From Escherichia coli (GTDB lineage Bacteria; Pseudomonadota; Gammaproteobacteria; Enterobacterales; Enterobacteriaceae), in assembly GCF_001677475.2 (NCBI RefSeq), contig NZ_CP015229.1: 64,000 nt of DNA. One strand, written 5' to 3'. Shown in pieces: positions 1 to 45,733 of this stretch. Below the pieces are notes generated by a model. It was not told the DNA's origin. It did not search any database and saw only the letters and a program-made list of their open reading frames with translations. The translations under genes and the position numbers were made by a program. Numbering within the stretch: the stretch's first letter is position 1; each line of letters starts with the position of its first letter.

Positions 1-1393
1 CAGCCAGTGCACGTATAGCGGCGACAAAACAGGCCATCGGCGCAGTGGTGATCCCGGCACCAATTTGCCCGACTCCCGCTTGTTTGTGGGCGATACCCGT
101 ATTGATGACCGGTAAAATGCCGCGATCGGTAACTTTACGCGCATCAATCCCTGCTGCGGTGGGGGCAAAATTGAGGGCAGGAAGTGTAAATGCGGGGTTA
201 CCGCCGAGGGTGATTGCCTGCATCCGACGGCTGTTATTGGTGGCATCGGCAGGTGTGCCTCCCACAAATTTAACGATTGCCGGAGATGACGCCATCGCGA
301 AGCCACCTACACCAGCGGTTTCGGTAATTGCGCTATCGCCCAAGTCAGCAGCGGCGTCGTCAACGCCAAATCCAGGGAAGAACAGACCTTCAACTGCATT
401 GGCGGGAGCCTGGAACCAGCGATCGCCAGTACCGGAAAGCCGAATACCAAAATTCACCCCGTTACGCGCCATCACCGTAACCATTGAACTGAACGGTACA
501 TTGGCGGCGGCATCCATCATTGCTTTACAGGCAGCCATCGACAGATTGAGGAAGAAGTGATCGTTACCGGTGATAAATGCTACGACGCGCTGGATATGTT
601 CCTGTGGAAGAGAGCGGGCCAGCAATGCCGGGATCAGACGCTTAATCAGCAAACCGGTAGCGGCAGCATTGCGGTTATGAACTTCATCCCCCATATGTAG
701 CGCCTGCGCCATTAATGGCTTGAGTTCCAGCTCGCCGTGTTGTGCGATTGCTGCTTTCATTGCCGGAGCCAGTTCATCGCGCATCCAGGCCAGACGATTG
801 AGAACTTCGTCGTTATTGGCGCCAAAACGGAGAACCTTACCCAGACCTTCATTGAAATTACTAAAAGTACGATGACCGTTGGTTTTATTTTCCACCACCC
901 ATAACGGCATTGACGGGCTGATGATGCCTGCCATTGGTCCAACCGCGTGATAATGATGACAAGGGGCAAGGTCGATTTCGCCTGCGTTTATCTGGTTTTC
1001 TGCGTCTTGCTGGCTGGTGGCCCAACCTTCGTACAGCATGGCACCAATAATCGCCCCTTTTACCGGACCACACATCTCTTCCCAGGTAATCGGCGGGCCA
1101 GAGTGCAAAATACGTTTTTGTTCAGCCATTGCTGGAATGGCCTCTTTAGCGAGCATGACATCCACCAGCACGGGCTGTGCTTCGAGATAACGTGTCATGG
1201 CGATTTGGTTGGCATTTTCTACCAGTGGATGACGTAGCAACGATGCCAGATCCAATCCAGCGTCAATATCGCCTTGTGCTGGTGGCTGCCAGTTGAGTGC
1301 AATTGCGCTTCCCCCGGCATGTTGAATATTGTCAGCAAAACTGTGTAGTCCCGCGTTCACGACCTTCAAAGACTGATTAAATAAGGTATTCAT
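1..1393 (-). CDS. Putative YlbE/YahG-like protein (DUF1116 suggested by synteny), C-terminus beyond window start
   Basis: Hand translation of the minus strand from ATG at 1393-1391 (MNTLFNQSLKVVNAGLHSF...) stays open to position 1. Start overlaps the upstream stop as ATGA. Family assignment rests on position downstream of an fdrA-like gene, not on recognised motifs. Confidence 0.5.
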   Translation of the reverse strand, partial: MNTLFNQSLKVVNAGLHSFADNIQHAGGSAIALNWQPPAQGDIDAGLDLASLLRHPLVENANQIAMTRYLEAQPVLVDVMLAKEAIPAMAEQKRILHSGPPITWEEMCGPVKGAIIGAMLYEGWATSQQDAENQINAGEIDLAPCHHYHAVGPMAGIISPSMPLWVVENKTNGHRTFSNFNEGLGKVLRFGANNDEVLNRLAWMRDELAPAMKAAIAQHGELELKPLMAQALHMGDEVHNRNAAATGLLIKRLIPALLARSLPQEHIQRVVAFITGNDHFFLNLSMAACKAMMDAAANVPFSSMVTVMARNGVNFGIRLSGTGDRWFQAPANAVEGLFFPGFGVDDAAADLGDSAITETAGVGGFAMASSPAIVKFVGGTPADATNNSRRMQAITLGGNPAFTLPALNFAPTAAGIDARKVTDRGILPVINTGIAHKQAGVGQIGAGITTAPMACFVAAIRALA

Positions 1394-2949
1394 GCGTTTA
1401 GCCCCTTTTTCTGCAACTGAGTCTGTGCAACGGTGCTGGCCCATAGCGCCGCCTGTGCATTGCTGCTGGCGATGATGACCCCTGCATTTTGTAGTGCGCT
1501 TATCTGCTGGCTGCGTATTTGCGGATCAGCTTCCGTTCCGCAAACGTGCGCAATCAGCAACGGTGCGTTATTCATGTCGATGTGTGAAAGTTGGTCCAGT
1601 AATTCGCTGGCAGGCGTCGTGGAAGCGCCATAACCAAGTACCAGGTCGAATAACACGACGGCAGTGTGTGAGTCGTTGAGTTCGTTGAGCAGACGTTGAT
1701 TGCGCAGAGTCGGATCGATCATTGGATGCGGTTTGCCACGGGTGAAATCATCGTCGCCCATATCGATCAACGTGTGATCTTCGCTTTGCCAGATATTTGC
1801 CAGAGCACGATTACCCGCAACTGGCGTATTGGAAGCTGCGCTGAATCCCTTTTGTTGGCAGATAAGTTGCGCTTCGTAGCAGAAGGTTCCTCCGGCGAAA
1901 ACACCGCGTATCGCCTGGCGATGGGCTGGCAGGCGCTGGCAGGCGTTTTGTAACATTGTGAGATCGTCGCAGGGTACATCGGTTTCGACAGCCGGAAATG
2001 GCTGAGCATTCAGTAACGCCACAGCGATGTCGGCGGCGCTGGCAAGTGTGGTGGCGGCAGTGATATTGGGACGTGCCAGATCATGCGGATTCGCCCCGAG
2101 GAAATTCACCACCACGGGTTTTCCACAAGCCTCGGCGCGCTCCAGAATAGTCCGGGCAACGATCGGTGAAGGCGGTTTTGAAATAAGCACAATCACGCGA
2201 GTTTCATCGTCTTGCGCCAGCGCATCTAAAGCGAAGAGCATCGATATTCCACTAATCTCTTCACTGAGATCATGTCCGCCTGTTCCCAACGCCTGAGAAA
2301 TACCCGCTCCGAGCTGGTCGATTCGGCAAGTCACTTCCTGTAGCCCGGTGCCTGACGCGCCAATAACACCAATCGCTCCACGTTTCACCACATTGGCGAA
2401 GCCTAACGGAATGCCGTTAACGATGGCGGTTCCACAGTCAGGTCCCATTACGATGCGCTGACGTTCTCGGGCAAGTGTTTTGATGGATTTTTCCTGCGCG
2501 ATACTGACGTTATCGCTGAACATCATCACGTTCATTCCGAGGTTTAACGCTTTAATTGCTTCGGCGGCGGCGTAGTCTCCCGGTACAGAAATGAGTGCCA
2601 GGTTGGCTTCGGGTTCGGCTTCCAGTGCCATTTCCAGGCTGACCTTTTCCGGTGTTTTAATGCCACTACCCGTTTCATCATCGGGTTTGCTGGTCAGACG
2701 TTGCTGGGCCAGTACCAGTGCTTCATTGCAAATATCTTCTTCACCCATGACTGCAATCACTAAATCATTGGGACTGGCGTTGATTTCGTTACCCAGACCC
2801 ACATCGCGCAATTGTTCGAGATTATTGGGTGTTCCCATGACGACCGAAGCCTGTTGAATACCGGGCAATTTGCTGATTTGCGCGGAAATCTGCATCAGAG
2901 AAACCGAGTCCTGATAAAGATTGCTGAGAACTTTATGTTTAACTTTCAT
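1390..2949 (-). CDS. FdrA-like protein (succinyl-CoA synthetase alpha-like CoA-binding fold)
   Basis: 519 aa ORF; N-terminal YQDSVSLMQIS motif typical of FdrA/YahF; glycine-rich GVIGASGTG segment. Confidence 0.8.
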   Translation of the reverse strand: MKVKHKVLSNLYQDSVSLMQISAQISKLPGIQQASVVMGTPNNLEQLRDVGLGNEINASPNDLVIAVMGEEDICNEALVLAQQRLTSKPDDETGSGIKTPEKVSLEMALEAEPEANLALISVPGDYAAAEAIKALNLGMNVMMFSDNVSIAQEKSIKTLARERQRIVMGPDCGTAIVNGIPLGFANVVKRGAIGVIGASGTGLQEVTCRIDQLGAGISQALGTGGHDLSEEISGISMLFALDALAQDDETRVIVLISKPPSPIVARTILERAEACGKPVVVNFLGANPHDLARPNITAATTLASAADIAVALLNAQPFPAVETDVPCDDLTMLQNACQRLPAHRQAIRGVFAGGTFCYEAQLICQQKGFSAASNTPVAGNRALANIWQSEDHTLIDMGDDDFTRGKPHPMIDPTLRNQRLLNELNDSHTAVVLFDLVLGYGASTTPASELLDQLSHIDMNNAPLLIAHVCGTEADPQIRSQQISALQNAGVIIASSNAQAALWASTVAQTQLQKKGLNA

Positions 2950-3043
2950 GCTGTTACGCCTGTTTCATTCCGCCCGATAGTAAAATTCGGGCAAAGCATC
3001 CCCGTGTAGCGCCATAAATGAGCTACAGGAGAAAAGGTTGAAA

Positions 3044-3904
3044 TCAATTCATGGTGTTCAGGGTTCGAAAGCCATGCAGCATTCCTGCAAGGCAATCCAC
3101 TCCTGACGTTGCGCCAAATTGCATGACCTGTTCTGCACAGGATGCGATTGTCATTGCCGATGCGCCCCCAACCAGTTGTGCGAGTAACTGGCAAATCGGT
3201 TCTGAAAAATGCCCCCGAAGCGCACGCTCCAGATAATGACGACTGATGTCAGTGGTGTTGTGCGCATGTTGATCAATTGCCTGCTGCAACCGGTATTGAT
3301 GAGCGGCAAGTGGTGCAGGTAGTTGCCATAACCAGAGCGCTGCCAGATAGCCCAACAAATAGTCATCTCCATCGGGAGTTAAGCCTTTGCCAAAGCCGAT
3401 CAGTTGTGGCACCTGGCGTTCCAGCGCATCTGGATGTTCCATAATCTCTAATCCCTGGTGCGTGAGACTATCCGGCAGGTGCAATGTGCTTTGAACGTTA
3501 TGCTCCAGACAAAATAAAAGCCGTTGCGATGCCATCGTTGGGTAGTGCTGGAAAACCAAAGGGAACGCCTCAAGTGTCAGCCTTCCTCCCACAAATGACG
3601 GCTGCCAGAGCGTTGCGTTATCGAGAGCCACACAAAAGCGAGGTGTCTGCAGCAAGCCTGGGGTTAACTGAACGGGATCGGAATGGGCAATCTCTCTTCG
3701 CCAGTCCCAACGCTTAGGCAGCCAGACTCTGGCAGCATCAGGGAGATTCAGATACGTTTGCGCACACAACAGGGTGATGAATGTTCCCGCTTCTGAATAC
3801 AGATTTACCGCATGTTTAAAAGCACTGTGCAGACGTAAATCTTGCGTTTCATTCCACGGGAAAAGATATCCCAACGACGATGCGCAAAGCGTAACCTGTA
3901 CCAT
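3044..3904 (-). CDS. Putative YlbF/YahE-like protein (DUF2877 suggested)
   Basis: 286 aa ORF with a GKGLTPDGDD motif, sitting immediately upstream of the fdrA-like gene as in the fdrA-ylbE-ylbF and yahEFG paralogue sets. Confidence 0.5.
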   Translation of the reverse strand: MVQVTLCASSLGYLFPWNETQDLRLHSAFKHAVNLYSEAGTFITLLCAQTYLNLPDAARVWLPKRWDWRREIAHSDPVQLTPGLLQTPRFCVALDNATLWQPSFVGGRLTLEAFPLVFQHYPTMASQRLLFCLEHNVQSTLHLPDSLTHQGLEIMEHPDALERQVPQLIGFGKGLTPDGDDYLLGYLAALWLWQLPAPLAAHQYRLQQAIDQHAHNTTDISRHYLERALRGHFSEPICQLLAQLVGGASAMTIASCAEQVMQFGATSGVDCLAGMLHGFRTLNTMN

Positions 3905-3909
3905 CGGTG

Positions 3910-4578
3910 TTAGCCTTCCAGGCCTGCAATAATGGCTTTGGAATCAGTAACCCAACCGAAAATGGCACCTTGTGCTTTGATCATCTCCAGGGCGTATTTC
4001 TGGAATTCCGGGAAATAGGAGCCAACGCAATCTTCCGGGATGATGCACTCATAACCACGATCATTCGCTTCGCGCACGGTGGTGGTCACACAGACTTCCG
4101 TGGTTACTCCGCAAACAATCAGCGTTTTGATGCCGTGGTTTTGCAAAATCAGATGTAAGTCGGTTTGATAAAAAGCGCCTTTGCCGGGTTTATCAATCAC
4201 CGGTTCGCCTGCGACCGGGTACAGTTCAGGAATGATGTCATGACCTGCTTCACCTCTGACCAGAATGCGCCCCATCGGGCCTGCTTCACCAATAAAGGTT
4301 TTACCGCCGCGCGTCAGTTTGGCTGGTGGGCAGTCGCTTAAGTCTGCACGATGGCCTTCACGGGTATGAATAACCATAATTCCTTTTTGACGTGCGGCTG
4401 CCAGCACCTCTGTACATGGAGCGATAGCCGTGCGTACCAGTGAAACATCATTGCCCAGTGCCTCACCGAAGCCCCCTGCTTCGACAAAGTCACGCTGCAT
4501 GTCGATCATGACCAGTGCAGTTGTGCGCGGATCAAAAGGTAATTCAAAGGGTTGAGCCTGAAAAATGGATTGCGTCAT
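3910..4578 (-). CDS. Isochorismatase-family cysteine hydrolase (amidohydrolase-like)
   Basis: 222 aa ORF; MIDMQRDF aspartate motif near the N-terminus and LIVCGVTTEVCV cysteine motif; 5 nt from the next gene. Confidence 0.75.
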   Translation of the reverse strand: MTQSIFQAQPFELPFDPRTTALVMIDMQRDFVEAGGFGEALGNDVSLVRTAIAPCTEVLAAARQKGIMVIHTREGHRADLSDCPPAKLTRGGKTFIGEAGPMGRILVRGEAGHDIIPELYPVAGEPVIDKPGKGAFYQTDLHLILQNHGIKTLIVCGVTTEVCVTTTVREANDRGYECIIPEDCVGSYFPEFQKYALEMIKAQGAIFGWVTDSKAIIAGLEG

Positions 4579-4835
4579 GGTAAATCTCCTGTCTGATGTT
4601 TAAACGATCCAGTTGTTCTGAGAACGAGTATTCAGGAGAAAAGCGGCACAAAACAGGAAAAAAGTTTGCCGCACAGCAACGAAATTTTTGCATTCAGCAG
4701 GCGGCGTGATGACGAATGTGAAGGGGGTCAAATCGTGGCATACAGCAACAAAATTTTTGATGCTGTATGGTTTTGAGTTTAAAAAAATCGTTGAAATTGT
4801 GTGAGCTTAAGCACCTGAGTTAGCTGCTATGGTGG

Positions 4836-5645
4836 TTATTTTTTAACACCATACTGCTTAAACCACTCCAGCATACGCTGCCAGCCATCTTTTGCAGATG
4901 CGGCATGATAGCTCGGGCGATAATCAGCGTTGAATGCATGCCCGGCGTCCGGGTACACGATAATCTCTGCTTTCGCATTAGCAGCCCGCAGCGCCTGGCG
5001 CATGGTTTCAACGCTCTCCTGCGGAATGCTGTTATCCTGACCACCATATAAGCCGAGAACCGGCGCGTTAAGATCGGTTGCGATATCAACAGGTTGTTTC
5101 GGTGAATTCAGCGACTTATCGCCTGTCAGTTTGCCGTACCATGCCACCGCCGCTTTCAGTTGCGGGTTATGCGCAGCATACAGCCAGGTGATACGTCCAC
5201 CCCAGCAGAATCCGGTGATCATTAAACGATGAACATCGCCGCCGTTGCGGGAAGCCCAACTGGCGACATGATCGAGATCGGCCAGCACCTGCGAGTCAGG
5301 CACTTTTGCTACCAGACCGCTAAGCAACGTGGGGATATCGGCAAAATCATTCGGATCGCCTTCGCGGAAGTAAAGTTCAGGTGCGATAGCCAGATATCCC
5401 TCCAGCGCCAGACGGCGACAAATGTCGCGGATATGTTCATGCACGCCAAAAATTTCCTGCACTACAATGACCACTGGCAGTGGGCCATCGCTTTGCTTTG
5501 GTCTGGCATGGTAAGCAGGCATGTTATCCCCTTGTGAGGGGATAGAGGTGAAGCCCGCCGCAATCGCGTCGTCCGGGGTCTGAACGATGGTCGAAGCGAG
5601 AGGCGATGCAGCAGGTGCAAATCCAGATTGTTGTGTTGTTGCCAT
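4836..5645 (-). CDS. ysgA: Dienelactone hydrolase-family protein
   Basis: ORF 4836-5711; start placed at internal MATTQQSGF (about 270 aa); position upstream of udp matches K-12. Confidence 0.8.
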   Translation of the reverse strand: MATTQQSGFAPAASPLASTIVQTPDDAIAAGFTSIPSQGDNMPAYHARPKQSDGPLPVVIVVQEIFGVHEHIRDICRRLALEGYLAIAPELYFREGDPNDFADIPTLLSGLVAKVPDSQVLADLDHVASWASRNGGDVHRLMITGFCWGGRITWLYAAHNPQLKAAVAWYGKLTGDKSLNSPKQPVDIATDLNAPVLGLYGGQDNSIPQESVETMRQALRAANAKAEIIVYPDAGHAFNADYRPSYHAASAKDGWQRMLEWFKQYGVKK

Positions 5646-5765
5646 GGTATTCTCCGTACCCTTATAAAAATGTTGCGCAATGTTAACTATAGTCAGCATG
5701 CAACAAATCACATTGCCTGAATCGGCTCATCTTTTATGCAGTCCTGCAGAATGAAGAGTGATTTA

Positions 5766-5833
5766 TGTGATTTGCATCACTTTTGGTGGGTAAATTTATG
5801 CAACGCATTTGCGTCATGGTGATGAGTATCACG
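5766..5833 (+). promoter_or_regulatory. udp promoter region with two CRP-like sites about 52 bp apart
   Basis: TGTGAtttgcaTCACt at 5766-5781 and GTGAtgagtaTCAC at 5818-5833, upstream of udp. Confidence 0.6.
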
Positions 5834-5906
5834 AAAAAATGTTAAACCCTTCGGTAAAGTGTCTTTTTGCTTCTTCTGACTAAACCGATTCACAGAGGAG
5901 TTGTAT

Positions 5907-6668
5907 ATGTCCAAGTCTGATGTTTTTCATCTCGGCCTCACTAAAAACGATTTACAAGGGGCTACGCTTGCCATCGTCCCTGGCGACCCGGATCGTGTGG
6001 AAAAGATCGCCGCGCTGATGGATAAGCCGGTTAAGCTGGCATCTCACCGCGAATTCACCACCTGGCGTGCAGAGCTGGATGGTAAACCTGTTATCGTCTG
6101 CTCTACCGGTATCGGCGGCCCGTCTACCTCTATTGCTGTTGAAGAGCTGGCACAGCTGGGCATTCGCACCTTCCTGCGTATCGGTACAACGGGCGCTATT
6201 CAGCCGCATATTAATGTGGGTGATGTCCTGGTTACCACGGCGTCTGTCCGTCTGGATGGCGCGAGCCTGCACTTCGCACCGCTGGAATTCCCGGCTGTCG
6301 CTGATTTCGAATGTACGACTGCGCTGGTTGAGGCTGCGAAATCCATCGGCGCGACGACTCACGTTGGCGTGACGGCTTCTTCTGATACCTTCTACCCAGG
6401 TCAGGAACGTTACGATACTTACTCTGGTCGCGTAGTTCGTCACTTTAAAGGTTCTATGGAAGAGTGGCAGGCGATGGGCGTAATGAACTATGAAATGGAA
6501 TCTGCAACCCTGCTGACCATGTGTGCAAGTCAGGGTCTACGTGCCGGTATGGTAGCGGGTGTTATCGTTAACCGCACCCAGCAAGAGATCCCGAATGCTG
6601 AGACGATGAAACAAACTGAAAGCCAAGCGGTGAAAATCGTGGTGGAAGCGGCGCGTCGTCTGCTGTAA
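5907..6668 (+). CDS. udp: Uridine phosphorylase
   Basis: [36 protein letters not shown]-terminus; about 253 aa. Confidence 0.95.
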
Positions 6669-6686
6669 TCCTCTTCTCCTGTCTGA

Positions 6687-6717
6687 AGGCCGACGCGTTC
6701 GGCCTTTTGTATTTTTG
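6687..6717 (+). terminator. Intrinsic terminator after udp
   Basis: aaggccgacgcgttcggcctt hairpin followed by a T-rich tract. Confidence 0.7.
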
Positions 6718-6808
6718 CGTAGCGCCTCGCAGGAAATGCCTTTCCAACTGGACGTTTGTACAGCACAATTCTATTTTGTGCGGGTAAGTTGTTGCGTCAG
6801 GAGGCGTT

Positions 6809-8236
6809 GTGGATTTCTCAATCATGGTTTACGCAGTTATTGCGTTGGTGGGTGTGGCAATTGGCTGGCTGTTTGCCAGTTATCAACATGCGCAGCAAAA
6901 AGCCGAGCAATTAGCTGAACGTGAAGAGATGGTCGCGGAGTTAAGCGCGGCAAAACAACAAATTACCCAAAGTGAGCACTGGCGCGCTGAGTGCGAGTTA
7001 CTCAATAACGAAGTGCGCAGCCTGCAAAGTATTAACACCTCTCTGGAGGCCGATCTGCGTGAAGTAACCACGCGGATGGAAGCCGCACAGCAACATGCTG
7101 ACGATAAAATTCGCCAGATGATTAACAGCGAGCAGCGCCTCAGTGAGCAGTTTGAAAACCTCGCCAACCGTATTTTTGAGCACAGCAATCGCCGGGTTGA
7201 TGAGCAAAACCGTCAGAGTCTGAACAGCCTGTTGTCGCCGCTACGTGAACAACTGGACGGTTTCCGCCGTCAGGTTCAGGACAGCTTCGGTAAAGAAGCA
7301 CAAGAACGCCATACCCTGACCCACGAAATTCGCAATCTCCAGCAACTCAACGCGCAAATGGCCCAGGAGGCGATCAACCTGACGCGCGCGCTGAAAGGCG
7401 ACAATAAAACTCAGGGCAACTGGGGCGAGGTAGTATTGACGCGGGTGCTGGAGGCTTCCGGTCTGCGTGAAGGGTATGAATATGAAACCCAGGTCAGCAT
7501 CGAAAATGACGCCCGCTCGCGGATGCAGCCGGATGTCATCGTGCGGCTGCCGCAGGGAAAAGATGTGGTGATCGACGCCAAAATGACGCTGGTCGCCTAT
7601 GAACGCTATTTTAACGCCGATGACGACTACACCCGCGAAAGCGCGCTACAGGAACATATCGCGTCGGTGCGTAACCATATCCGTTTGCTGGGACGCAAAG
7701 ATTATCAACAGCTGCCGGGGCTGCGAACCCTGGATTACGTGCTGATGTTTATTCCCGTTGAACCCGCTTTTTTACTGGCGCTTGACCGCCAGCCGGAGCT
7801 GATCACCGAAGCGTTGAAAAACAATATCATGCTGGTTAGCCCGACCACGCTGCTGGTGGCGCTGCGCACTATCGCCAACCTCTGGCGCTATGAGCATCAA
7901 AGTCGTAACGCCCAGAAAATAGCCGATCACGCCAGCAAGCTGTACGACAAGATGCGTTTGTTCGTCGATGACATGTCAGCGATTGGTCAAAGTCTCGACA
8001 AAGCGCAGGATAACTACCGCCAGGCAATGAAAAAACTCTCTTCAGGTCGCGGAAATGTGCTGGCGCAGGCAGAAGCGTTCCGCGGTTTAGGAGTAGAAAT
8101 TAAACGCGAGATTAATCCGGATTTGGCTGAACAGGCGGTGAGCCAGGATGAAGAGTATCGACTTCGGTCGGTTCCGGAGCAGCCGAATGATGAAGCTTAT
8201 CAACGCGATGATGAATATAATCAGCAGTCGCGCTAG
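6809..8236 (+). CDS. rmuC: DNA recombination protein RmuC
   Basis: 475 aa ORF with N-terminal membrane anchor and long coiled-coil region; conserved position. Confidence 0.9.
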   Translation: MDFSIMVYAVIALVGVAIGWLFASYQHAQQKAEQLAEREEMVAELSAAKQQITQSEHWRAECELLNNEVRSLQSINTSLEADLREVTTRMEAAQQHADDKIRQMINSEQRLSEQFENLANRIFEHSNRRVDEQNRQSLNSLLSPLREQLDGFRRQVQDSFGKEAQERHTLTHEIRNLQQLNAQMAQEAINLTRALKGDNKTQGNWGEVVLTRVLEASGLREGYEYETQVSIENDARSRMQPDVIVRLPQGKDVVIDAKMTLVAYERYFNADDDYTRESALQEHIASVRNHIRLLGRKDYQQLPGLRTLDYVLMFIPVEPAFLLALDRQPELITEALKNNIMLVSPTTLLVALRTIANLWRYEHQSRNAQKIADHASKLYDKMRLFVDDMSAIGQSLDKAQDNYRQAMKKLSSGRGNVLAQAEAFRGLGVEIKREINPDLAEQAVSQDEEYRLRSVPEQPNDEAYQRDDEYNQQSR

Positions 8237-8330
8237 CCCATTGGGGGTAGTTAAGCCGGGTAGAAATCTAGGGCATCGACGCCCAATCTGTTACACTTCT
8301 GGAACAATTTTTTGATGAGCAGGCATTGAG

Positions 8331-9086
8331 ATGGTGGATAAGTCACAAGAAACGACGCACTTTGGTTTTCAGACCGTCGCGAAGGAACAAAAAGCGGATA
8401 TGGTCGCCCACGTTTTCCATTCCGTGGCATCAAAATACGATGTCATGAATGATTTGATGTCATTCGGTATTCATCGTTTGTGGAAGCGATTCACGATTGA
8501 TTGCAGCGGCGTACGTCGTGGGCAGACCGTGCTGGATCTGGCTGGTGGTACCGGTGACCTGACAGCGAAATTCTCCCGCCTGGTCGGTGAAACTGGCAAA
8601 GTGGTCCTTGCTGATATCAATGAATCTATGCTCAAAATGGGGCGCGAGAAACTGCGTAATATCGGCGTGATTGGCAACGTTGAGTATGTTCAGGCGAACG
8701 CCGAGGCGCTGCCGTTCCCGGATAACACCTTTGATTGCATCACCATTTCGTTTGGTCTGCGTAACGTCACCGACAAAGATAAAGCACTACGTTCAATGTA
8801 TCGCGTGCTGAAACCCGGCGGCCGCCTGCTGGTGCTTGAGTTCTCGAAACCGATTATCGAACCATTAAGCAAAGCTTATGACGCTTACTCCTTCCATGTT
8901 CTGCCGCGTATTGGCTCGCTGGTCGCGAATGACGCCGACAGCTACCGTTATCTGGCTGAATCCATCCGTATGCATCCCGATCAGGATACTCTGAAAGCCA
9001 TGATGCAAGATGCCGGATTCGAAAGTGTCGATTATTACAACCTGACGGCTGGCGTTGTGGCGCTGCATCGTGGGTATAAGTTCTGA
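8331..9086 (+). CDS. ubiE: Ubiquinone/menaquinone C-methyltransferase
   Basis: 251 aa; SAM-binding [11 protein letters not shown] motif. Confidence 0.95.
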
Positions 9087-9099
9087 CAGGAGACCGGAA

Positions 9100-11342
<2,243 letters not shown>

Positions 11343-11420
11343 TTTTTTCATCGCTCAAGGCGGGCCGTGTAACGTATAATGCGGCCTTGTTTAATCATCA
11401 TCTACCACAGAGGAACATGT

Positions 11421-13029: not shown

Positions 13030-14342
<1,313 letters not shown>

Positions 14343-45503: not shown

Positions 45504-45733
45504 AAAAAAGCCCATGCAGAGATGGGCTGAAATTTCCACGGCAACTAAAAACCAGTCCCATCAGGCTATTTTATTTGCCATTTTGAACCTGGGCAGTGCT
45601 CGAACTCCTCACGTACCAGTGTACGCTCCGGGTTCTGCGCGCTGTCCGTGTTCAAACTGGCTGCAACAATTACGCCAGATGGGCCTGGTTTGAACCTCCG
45701 GCGTTGTTGCGCCGGGTAGTACAACTTCAACTA
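45504..45733 (-). ncRNA. glnA 3' UTR, candidate GlnZ-type 3'-derived sRNA
   Basis: Minus-strand terminator (agcccatctctgcatgggct plus T run, plus coordinates 45504-45529) lies about 200 nt beyond the glnA stop. Confidence 0.5.

What the first reader, a model, noticed from the sequence alone, without database searches (positions are those of the whole stretch)
1390..1393. ATGA stop-start overlap between the FdrA-like gene and the downstream gene
The fdrA-like TGA stop (1392-1390 on the minus strand) shares two bases with the ATG of the downstream gene (1393-1391). This arrangement is typical of translationally coupled subunits of one complex.
Basis: seen in the sequence. Interest (0 to 1): 0.3.

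Follow-up and report, generated by a model that had tools for sequence, protein, structure and literature searches.

The report
Ordinary stop-start overlap, FdrA/AllG-like genes
The four-base ATGA where one gene's stop overlaps the next gene's start is real, but it is the commonest gene junction in bacteria; here it joins two genes whose E. coli relatives are subunits of the enzyme oxamic transcarbamylase.

Summary
Confirmed and mostly ordinary. On the minus strand the fdrA-like ORF (2949..1390, 519 aa) ends with TGA at 1392-1390. The next ORF starts with ATG at 1393-1391 and stays open to the window edge (464 codons; 474 aa in full-length relatives). RefSeq annotates the same 4-nt overlap in E. 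coli.

The downstream protein is an AllG/YlbE (DUF1116) homologue. An AllH-like gene lies upstream. The genes sit in the accessory "tkt1 island" of ExPEC-type E. coli, found in about 29% of complete genomes.

The ATG at 1393 is the best-supported start. Long-form orthologues from many phyla begin at the same Met, and it has the best Shine-Dalgarno sequence. Residues 5-42 are homologous to the C-terminal tail of canonical AllF, so the F/G gene boundary has moved by one roughly 40-aa module between paralogous operons.

"One complex" is supported by homology: untagged AllG co-eluted with His-tagged AllF and AllH as active oxamic transcarbamylase. F-to-G adjacency is tight in 69 of 76 related loci.

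Translational coupling is plausible but untested. The exact ATGA occurs in only 24 of 76 related loci, the Shine-Dalgarno sequence is not masked by predicted RNA structure, and -4 overlaps are the most common junction in E. coli. Low interest.

The parts
1390..1393 (-). ATGA stop/start overlap: ATG (1393-1391) of the allG-like gene and TGA (1392-1390) of the fdrA-like gene.
   Evidence: Read directly. ORF table and translations. Same annotation in RefSeq E. coli.
1390..2949 (-). fdrA/allF-like gene, 519 aa, short form that lacks the C-terminal tail of canonical AllF (555 aa).
   Evidence: Pfam PF00549 (5.5e-41) and PF02629. NCBIfam FdrA NF004760 scores 494.8 bits against a cut-off of 433 and covers only profile positions 7-498 of 555. 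41% identical to K-12 AllF. PDB 3DMY at 2.4e-84.
1..1393 (-). allG/ylbE-like gene (DUF1116), long form. 464 codons lie in the window; the last 10 codons and the stop lie beyond the window edge (474 aa in L001).
   Evidence: Pfam PF06545 AllG, 1.5e-98. 48% identical to K-12 AllG over residues 58-465. Orthologues of 467-480 aa cover at least 98% of the protein. PDB 3CLQ covers residues 57-465 only.
1268..1381 (-). N-terminal module of the AllG-like protein (residues 5-42, LFxQxLxVxNxGLxxFAxxI...WQPPAxGD). It is homologous to the C-terminal tail of canonical AllF (residues 507-544).
   Evidence: NCBIfam FdrA profile positions 507-544 match residues 5-42 at E 3.8e-05. BLASTP aligns AllF 509-544 with residues 7-42, 36% identity, E 2e-4. 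A tblastn HSP with the long G protein runs through the allF TAA into allG in K-12, in the same frame. The module is conserved in alignment A1.
1402..1407 (-). Shine-Dalgarno-like AAGGGG inside the 3' end of fdrA, 8 nt before the ATG.
   Evidence: Duplex with the 16S 3' end is -7.0 kcal/mol, equal to or better than most annotated starts in the window. It is unpaired in the centroid fold. A purine-rich motif sits at the same place in most related loci.
1442..1444 (-). Rejected alternative start: an in-frame ATG 17 codons upstream, which would give a 55-nt overlap. The 2012 APEC O1 annotation of 'yahG' used it.
   Evidence: Found. APEC O1 coordinates are in PMC3349570. It has a weaker, badly spaced Shine-Dalgarno sequence. 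It arises from the conserved FdrA 'xWAS' codons (cTA TGG GCC), and the extension peptide is not conserved. It is absent from most related loci.
3044..3904 (-). allH/ylbF-like gene (DUF2877), 286 aa, 94 nt upstream of fdrA. It would be the third subunit of the predicted enzyme.
   Evidence: Pfam PF11392 AllH, 5e-27. RefSeq product 'oxamate carbamoyltransferase subunit AllH family protein'.
3910..4578 (-). Cysteine hydrolase (isochorismatase family, biuret-amidohydrolase-like, below the equivalog cut-off). First gene of the cluster, 5 nt before allH-like.
   Evidence: Pfam PF00857, 5.9e-48. NCBIfam BiuH 279 bits against a cut-off of 370. RefSeq annotation.

Best explanation
The ATGA is a genuine -4 stop/start junction inside one operon. 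The operon order is cysteine hydrolase, allH-like, fdrA/allF-like, allG-like, then (beyond the window) carbamate kinase, an allophanate-hydrolase-related protein, a cytosine-permease-family transporter and a LysR regulator. It lies in the accessory tkt1 island of E. coli.

The F-like and G-like proteins are paralogues of two of the three subunits of oxamic transcarbamylase (AllFGH). They most likely form, with the AllH-like protein, a related phosphorolytic carbamoyl-transferring enzyme. Its carbamoyl phosphate would be used by the linked carbamate kinase.

Translation of the G-like protein starts at the ATG at 1393, guided by the AAGGGG Shine-Dalgarno sequence embedded in the last codons of fdrA. 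Ribosomes terminating fdrA at the TGA are positioned on that start and probably reinitiate there (termination-reinitiation). This would tie G output to F output, on top of some independent initiation.

Shown here: the overlap, the start position, the family assignments, the shifted F/G boundary, and the tight F-G adjacency across phyla. Inferred: complex formation of this particular pair, its substrate, and any coupling.
For: - Sequence and ORFs.
- Family assignments.
- Identical RefSeq annotation, and presence in 1559 of 5426 complete E. coli genomes.
- Start position. 120 listed orthologues, nearly all 467-480 aa, cover at least 98% of the protein. Met1 aligns in all long forms. A start codon lies at or within a few codons of the expected position in 80 loci from many phyla. 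The best Shine-Dalgarno energy and spacing belong to 1393.
- Boundary shift. Residues 5-42 of G match the AllF tail, positions 507-544. K-12 allF and allG are in one frame, separated only by TAA plus 9 nt. K-12 yahF/yahG have the same short-F/long-G layout with a 1-nt overlap.
- Junction survey, n=76. Spacing is -4 in 24 loci, -1 in 5, -8 or -11 in 4, a 2-24 nt gap in 36, and more than 25 nt in 7. 55% fall within -8..+6, against 24% of all co-directional E. coli pairs (PMC10666635). The H-to-F junction in the same loci is looser.
- No promoter-like or terminator-like site at the junction.
- Literature. AllF-AllG-AllH purified together as active OXTCase (PMC11326118). Four of five E. coli ATGA pairs are coupled by termination-reinitiation (PMC6728339). 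Coupling decays within about 20-40 nt, and close pairs are 4.5-fold enriched for complexes (PMC10666635).
Against: - No experiment exists on this pair: no ribosome profiling, no N-terminal proteomics, no pull-down.
- The exact ATGA is not conserved. Close relatives have TAA plus a 4-16 nt gap, so selection acts on proximity rather than on the overlap itself.
- The junction RNA is less structured than shuffled controls (z +1.07 and +1.64), and the Shine-Dalgarno sequence is good. Independent initiation is therefore possible, and coupling may be partial or negligible, as for bioBF.
- In the OXTCase paper the complex was weak: with only AllH tagged, AllF and AllG washed away.
- AlphaFold2 on a fused F+G chain gave pTM of only 0.60, so there is no in-silico confirmation of an interface.
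- The junction statistics are not corrected for phylogeny.
Confidence: 0.7

Rival explanations
1. The overlap is a neutral by-product of compact operon organisation. The G-like gene is translated essentially independently from its own Shine-Dalgarno sequence, and the ATGA adds no meaningful coupling. F and G may still be subunits of one enzyme.
For: - -4 is the commonest spacing in E. coli, and one mutation turns ATGN into ATGA (PMC10666635).
- The overlap is present in only 24 of 76 orthologous junctions. It is replaced by 4-16 nt gaps in close relatives and by a 9-nt gap in canonical allF-allG.
- The Shine-Dalgarno sequence is strong and accessible, and no masking structure is predicted.
- bioBF is an E. 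coli ATGA pair without coupling (PMC6728339).
- ubiJ/ubiB in this window also overlap by ATGA.
Against: - Four of five tested E. coli ATGA pairs were coupled, even ones with good Shine-Dalgarno sequences.
- 55% of F-G junctions lie within the -8..+6 range that allows reinitiation, against 24% genome-wide.
- F-G is tighter than H-F in the same operons.
Confidence: 0.25
2. The downstream protein really starts at the upstream in-frame ATG (1444-1442), as in the original APEC O1 annotation. That would give a 55-nt out-of-frame overlap rather than ATGA.
For: - It is the first ATG of the open frame; the in-frame stop lies at 1528-1526.
- The APEC O1 record lists yahG 4323383..4324858 overlapping yahF 4324804.. 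by 55 nt (PMC3349570).
- A start codon recurs near -17 or -18 codons in a few relatives.
Against: - That ATG is generated by the conserved FdrA Trp-Ala-Ser codons, and the 17-residue extension is not conserved.
- Most related loci have no start codon, or have a stop, in that stretch.
- Its Shine-Dalgarno-like match is weaker and only 3 nt from the ATG.
- Homology to the AllF tail and to all long-form orthologues begins at or after Met1 of the 1393 start.
- PGAP places the start at 1393 in every E. coli record examined.
Confidence: 0.04
3. The downstream protein starts at a later in-frame codon (TTG 1369, GTG 1360 or ATG 1198), so there is no overlap.
For: In-frame TTG, GTG and ATG codons exist at codons 9, 12 and 66. 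Canonical AllG (419 aa) aligns only from residue 58.
Against: - Residues 1-42 are conserved across phyla: M1, L4, F5, Q7, L9, V11, N13, G15, F19, W35, P37, P38 and G41 are invariant or nearly so in A1.
- These residues are homologous to a real protein segment, the AllF tail.
- The later candidates have little or no Shine-Dalgarno pairing (+0.9, -3.5 and +1.9 kcal/mol).
Confidence: 0.01

Closest known systems
E. coli K-12 allF-allG-allH-allK (fdrA-ylbE-ylbF-ybcF), oxamic transcarbamylase plus catabolic carbamate kinase (Kim & Kim 2024, PMC11326118)
   Same: The same three protein families are present (Pfam Ligase_CoA/CoA_binding, AllG, AllH), with a linked carbamate kinase. Identity is 41% for F and 48% for G. 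F and G are immediately adjacent on one strand. The three proteins are needed together for activity and were purified together.
   Different: - Gene order is H-F-G here, not F-G-H.
- The F/G boundary lies about 50 codons earlier: F is 519 aa rather than 555, and G is 474 aa rather than 419, so the tail module is on G.
- The junction is a 4-nt overlap rather than TAA plus 9 nt in the same frame.
- The genomic context is the tkt1 accessory island, with a cysteine hydrolase, an allophanate-hydrolase-related protein and a cytosine-permease-family transporter. It is not the allantoin regulon.
- The substrate is unknown.
E. coli K-12 yahE-yahF-yahG-(yahH)-yahI cluster (uncharacterised paralogues)
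   Same: Same H-F-G order, the same short-F (515 aa) and long-G (472 aa) architecture with the N-terminal module on G, a stop/start overlap at the F-G junction, and a carbamate-kinase-like gene downstream.
   Different: The overlap is 1 nt (TGATG) rather than 4. Identity is only 42% and 46%, so this is a separate paralogue, not the same locus. The accessory genes differ (ankyrin protein YahD, amidohydrolase YahJ). The function is also unknown.
Native E. coli -4 (ATGA) gene pairs shown to be translationally coupled by termination-reinitiation: hyfHI, astDB, ydbH/ynbE, menDH (Huber et al. 2019 and 2023)
   Same: Co-directional genes, an NTGA overlap, and a Shine-Dalgarno motif inside the 3' end of the upstream gene. 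The downstream gene lies in the -1 frame of the upstream gene.
   Different: Coupling has not been measured for this pair. Huber et al. proposed local RNA structure that suppresses de novo initiation, and no such structure is predicted here.

Membership tests
AllF/AllG/AllH-type carbamoyltransferase gene set (oxamic transcarbamylase family) | An FdrA/AllF-family protein (HMA-like N domain, CoA_binding and Ligase_CoA domains). | tested here: met
   PF00549 at 5.5e-41 and PF02629 at 1.3e-10. NCBIfam NF004760 scores 494.8 bits, above the 433 cut-off. Near-identical cluster members carry precomputed PF27530.
AllF/AllG/AllH-type carbamoyltransferase gene set (oxamic transcarbamylase family) | An AllG (DUF1116, PF06545) protein encoded next to it. 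| tested here: met
   PF06545 at 1.5e-98. 48% identical to K-12 AllG. Model to 3CLQ gives TM 0.90.
AllF/AllG/AllH-type carbamoyltransferase gene set (oxamic transcarbamylase family) | An AllH (DUF2877, PF11392) protein in the same operon. | tested here: met
   PF11392 at 5e-27 for ORF 3904..3044.
AllF/AllG/AllH-type carbamoyltransferase gene set (oxamic transcarbamylase family) | A linked catabolic carbamate kinase. | tested here: met
   It lies outside the window. In collinear E. coli, arcC overlaps the end of the G-like gene by 8 nt.
Oxamic transcarbamylase proper (orthologue of allFGH, allantoin pathway) | Location in the allantoin regulon next to allECD, with F-G-H order and a 555-aa F plus 419-aa G. 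| tested here: not met
   The cluster is inserted between metE and ysgA. The order is H-F-G with a 519-aa F and a 474-aa G. Identity to AllF and AllG is only 41% and 48%. Strains carrying it also have the canonical locus type (L002).
Oxamic transcarbamylase proper (orthologue of allFGH, allantoin pathway) | Catalyses oxalurate + Pi <-> carbamoyl phosphate + oxamate. | not testable with these tools
   This needs an enzyme assay. The accompanying genes suggest a different ureido or carbamoyl substrate.
Translationally coupled -4 overlapping gene pair (termination-reinitiation) | Co-directional genes with an NTGA stop/start overlap on one transcript. | tested here: met
   ATGA at 1393-1390. No promoter-like or terminator-like site between the genes.
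Translationally coupled -4 overlapping gene pair (termination-reinitiation) | A Shine-Dalgarno motif within the 3' end of the upstream gene at a functional distance. | tested here: met
   AAGGGG at 1407-1402, 8 nt from the ATG, -7.0 kcal/mol.
Translationally coupled -4 overlapping gene pair (termination-reinitiation) | Translation of the downstream gene depends on translation of the upstream gene reaching its stop. | not testable with these tools
   This needs reporter or ribosome-profiling experiments. Only indirect evidence is available: 55% of orthologous junctions lie within -8..+6.
Heteromeric complex subunits | Physical association of the two gene products. | tested here: inconclusive
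   Association is shown only for the paralogues AllF and AllG, by co-elution (PMC11326118). AlphaFold2 on a fused F+G chain gave pTM 0.60 and no PAE output. No solved F-G complex is in the PDB. The boundary-shift evidence argues for association.

The most novel reading that the evidence does not exclude
F and G behave as one protein split at a movable point. The roughly 40-aa module (residues 5-42 of the G-like protein, equivalent to AllF 507-544) would be the docking element that holds the two chains together. It can be encoded on either side of the stop/start, so the tight junction (ATGA here, TGATG in yahFG, TAA plus 9 nt in frame in allFG) would be the scar of a gene fission whose position has drifted. 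Its function would be to make the two chains at one site for co-translational assembly. A more extreme version is that a -1 slip at the in-frame heptamers G_AAA_AAG or A_AAG_GGG (1411-1402) yields a small amount of a true F-G fusion protein.
Probability: 0.3. Interest if true: 0.35.

Novelty: new member of a known kind. Interest (0 to 1): 0.15.

Why it matters
The practical value is mainly in annotation.
- It settles a start-codon conflict for a gene present in about 29% of complete E. coli genomes. The old APEC O1 record has a 55-nt overlap; current PGAP has a 4-nt overlap.
- It links three uncharacterised genes of the ExPEC-associated tkt1 island to the recently discovered three-subunit oxamic transcarbamylase family.

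The shifted F/G boundary is a small but useful clue for structural work on AllFGH, whose quaternary structure is still unknown. It points to the AllF tail / G N-terminal module as a candidate F-G interface, and it suggests F and G should be co-expressed from their native junction.

The overlap itself adds nothing new to what is known about translational coupling.

Tried and rejected
- **Natural F-G fusion proteins.** I searched with a chimeric query made of the last 150 aa of F plus the first 150 aa of G. The only proteins spanning both halves, P0134 and P0149, come from frameshift-ridden long-read contigs with fragmented genes and garbage C-termini. I rejected them as artefacts.
- **AlphaFold2.** G alone (14 sequences) gave mean pLDDT 72, with the N-terminal module at 39-62. 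A direct F+G concatenation with 17 paired sequences gave mean pLDDT 79.6 and pTM 0.60, with the module at 40-77. The gain is not specific to the module, because the whole G body improved with the better alignment. No PAE or coordinates are returned, so the interface question stays open. Foldseek against the PDB found only single chains, 3CLQ and 3DMY.
- **RNA structure masking the start.** None was found. The junction folds less well than shuffled controls. Rfam found nothing in 1-6000.
- **Polymorphisms among E. coli alleles as a test of which frame is constrained upstream of 1393.** Only two substitution events fall in the 51-nt stretch, so the test is uninformative.
- **Programmed -1 frameshifting.** The heptamers occur in E. 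coli, Edwardsiella and one other locus only, and overlap the Shine-Dalgarno sequence. I treat them as a by-product.
- **Promoter and terminator scan of 1-6000.** Nothing lies at or near the junction, and overall counts are below the shuffle expectation.
Full report
**1. Observation**

On the minus strand the window reads ...CAG AAA AAG GGG CTA AAC GCA TGA ATA CCT.... A 519-aa ORF (2949..1390) ends with TGA at 1392-1390. The ATG at 1393-1391 opens a second frame that has no stop down to base 1 (464 codons). The ORF lister therefore does not show it, because it runs off the window.

**2. What the genes are**

- The upstream protein has Ligase_CoA and CoA_binding domains and passes the NCBIfam FdrA model (494.8 bits against a cut-off of 433). 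It aligns only to profile positions 7-498 of 555.
- The downstream protein is an AllG/DUF1116 protein (PF06545, 1.5e-98).
- The gene before fdrA (3904..3044) is AllH/DUF2877. Before that lies an isochorismatase-family cysteine hydrolase that resembles biuret amidohydrolase but scores below its cut-off.

The first 4.6 kb of the window matches 1559 of 5426 complete E. coli genomes at 90-99% identity, including about 125 plasmid copies. In a collinear genome, RefSeq annotates fdrA and a "YlbE family protein" with the same 4-nt overlap. These are followed by carbamate kinase (8-nt overlap), an allophanate-hydrolase-related protein, a cytosine-permease-family transporter and a LysR regulator.

[quoted passage not shown] The rest of the window is ordinary E. 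coli chromosome, running from udp to glnA.

**3. Where the downstream gene starts**

The frame is open for 44 codons upstream of 1393, with its stop at 1528-1526, and it contains one earlier ATG at 1444. The 2012 APEC O1 table used that codon, giving a 55-nt overlap. So the start is a real annotation conflict. The evidence favours 1393.

- Orthologues of 467-480 aa from Enterobacterales, Burkholderiales, Vibrionales and others cover at least 98% of the protein and align from Met1.
- In 80 loci fetched from a GTDB-wide scan (Proteobacteria, Actinobacteria, Chloroflexi, Firmicutes, Bacteroidetes, Verrucomicrobia, Planctomycetes and others), a start codon lies at or within a few codons of the position predicted from the alignment. 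Most of these loci have no start codon further upstream.
- The 1444 ATG is created by the conserved FdrA Trp-Ala-Ser codons (cTA TGG GCC), and the peptide it would add is not conserved.
- AAGGGG lies 8 nt before 1393 and pairs with the anti-Shine-Dalgarno sequence at -7.0 kcal/mol. The value for 1444 is -5.8 with a 3-nt spacing, and the later in-frame TTG and GTG codons give +0.9 and -3.5.
- Residues 5-42 are homologous to a real protein segment, described next. This also rules out a later start.

**4. The shifted gene boundary**

Canonical K-12 AllF is 555 aa and AllG is 419 aa. Here F is 519 aa and G is 474 aa.

- Residues 5-42 of the G-like protein match positions 507-544 of the FdrA profile (E 3.8e-05).
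- They also match AllF residues 509-544 directly (36% identity).
- In K-12, a tblastn alignment of the long G protein runs from the allF tail straight through the stop into allG. The two genes are in one frame...LERLQ* GVP MFTS..., that is TAA GGG GTT CCC ATG.

So the same colinear sequence is cut before the roughly 40-aa module in this locus and in K-12 yahF/yahG (515 and 472 aa, TGATG overlap). It is cut after the module in allF/allG. A segment that can be attached to either partner is a Rosetta-stone-like argument that F and G work as one unit. I found no description of this in the papers I read.

**5. Are F and G one complex?**

For the paralogues, yes, within limits. allF, allG and allH are all required for oxamic transcarbamylase. 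Untagged AllG co-eluted with His-AllF and AllH-His in an active preparation. With only AllH tagged, however, the others washed off, and the stoichiometry is unknown (PMC11326118).

For this pair I have only inference from homology (41% and 48% identity), the boundary shift, and gene-neighbourhood conservation. The junction survey of 76 loci with an upstream F gene gave the following spacings:

| F-to-G spacing | Loci |
|---|---|
| -4 | 24 |
| -1 | 5 |
| -8 or -11 | 4 |
| gap of 2-24 nt | 36 |
| gap of more than 25 nt | 7 |

G therefore follows F within 24 nt or less in 69 of 76 loci. The H-to-F junction in the same loci is looser: 19 of 28 lie within 24 nt or less.

AlphaFold2 on a concatenated F+G chain gave pTM 0.60, which is inconclusive. 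The PDB holds only single chains, 3CLQ and 3DMY.

**6. Is translation coupled?**

In favour:
- -4 overlaps are the configuration in which termination-reinitiation has been demonstrated in E. coli, for 4 of 5 native pairs (PMC6728339).
- Coupling falls off steeply within about 20-40 nt (PMC10666635).
- 55% of F-G junctions fall within -8..+6, against 24% of all co-directional E. coli pairs. The binomial p is 3e-9, not corrected for phylogeny.

Against, or limiting:
- The exact ATGA is not conserved. Serratia oryzae, Edwardsiella, mycobacteria and several other lineages have it. Budvicia, Caballeronia, Paraburkholderia and Silvimonas have TAA plus 4-16 nt.
- The Shine-Dalgarno sequence is good, and the junction RNA is less structured than shuffled controls (z +1.07 and +1.64). 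De novo initiation is therefore not obviously suppressed.
- bioBF shows that an E. coli ATGA pair can be uncoupled.

In general, 30.4% of closely spaced E. coli pairs encode complexes, against 6.8% of distant ones. The overlap alone is weak evidence for a complex. ubiJ/ubiB overlap by ATGA in this same window.

**7. Most likely mechanism**

The genes are transcribed as one operon, with no promoter-like or terminator-like site at the junction. Ribosomes finishing fdrA terminate at a TGA that overlaps the allG-like ATG. The AAGGGG sequence in the last fdrA codons holds the 30S or 70S ribosome there, and a share of these ribosomes reinitiate. Free 30S subunits can probably also initiate at this site.

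The products, together with the AllH-like protein, would form a carbamoyl-transferring enzyme related to OXTCase, feeding carbamoyl phosphate to the linked carbamate kinase. The substrate is unknown. The neighbouring genes (a biuret-hydrolase-like cysteine hydrolase, an allophanate-hydrolase-related protein and a cytosine-permease-family transporter) point to some ureido or carbamoyl nitrogen compound rather than allantoin.

**8. Comparison and novelty**

The locus is a member of the AllF/AllG/AllH family by domain content. It is not the allantoin-pathway orthologue, because context, order, boundary and identity all differ. It shares its architecture with yahEFG.

The overlap is a textbook -4 junction that is already annotated in more than 1500 genomes. 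The only new element is the recognition that the F/G boundary differs by one module between paralogous operons. Interest is low (0.15).

Noticed in passing
window 1402-1411 (minus strand): Two slippery-type heptamers lie in the fdrA frame (G_AAA_AAG and A_AAG_GGG), 9-18 nt before the ATGA. The allG-like frame is the -1 frame of fdrA and is open for 44 codons upstream, so a -1 slip would make an F-G fusion protein. The motif is present only in E. coli alleles, Edwardsiella (L005) and L040 among 30 overlapping loci, and it overlaps the Shine-Dalgarno sequence. It is probably incidental.
   Followed up: partly
window 1442-1444; APEC O1 NC_008563 4324804..4324858: The published APEC O1 island table starts 'yahG' at the upstream ATG, giving a 55-nt overlap with 'yahF'. 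Current PGAP records use the 4-nt overlap. This is an annotation conflict in the literature (PMC3349570).
   Followed up: yes
L086 (plasmid pEM22-18-53_3, NZ_CP063462.1) 3173-11351: The whole eight-gene cluster, from cysteine hydrolase to the LysR regulator, also occurs on E. coli plasmids at about 93% identity. It is flanked by IS and transposase remnants, and about 125 plasmid places were found. The cluster therefore moves as a unit, separately from the tkt/ptsG part of the tkt1 island.
   Followed up: partly
window 1-4578 plus L001 4382-9393: This is a third AllFGH-like paralogue set in E. coli, besides allFGHK and yahEFGI. It is combined with a biuret-amidohydrolase-like cysteine hydrolase (279 bits against a cut-off of 370), a small allophanate-hydrolase-related protein and a cytosine-permease-family transporter. 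That suggests catabolism of an unidentified ureido or carbamoyl compound in ExPEC strains.
   Followed up: no
window 9702-9705: A second ATGA stop/start overlap lies in the same window, between ubiJ and ubiB, with a CTGGAGG Shine-Dalgarno sequence upstream. It illustrates how common the arrangement is.
   Followed up: yes
window 13809-13812: The convergent genes tatD (+) and rfaH (-) overlap by 4 nt at their 3' ends.
   Followed up: no
window 45550-45697: There is a 148-bp insertion relative to E. coli AF39, which is otherwise collinear at about 98% identity. It lies in the glnA-glnL intergenic region. It may be a small repetitive element and was not identified.
   Followed up: no
L090 487-1727 (E. 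coli TB354): In at least one E. coli genome the fdrA-like gene of this cluster is a frameshifted pseudogene with about 320 bp missing, while the allG-like gene stays intact. The cluster is therefore dispensable in some strains.
   Followed up: no
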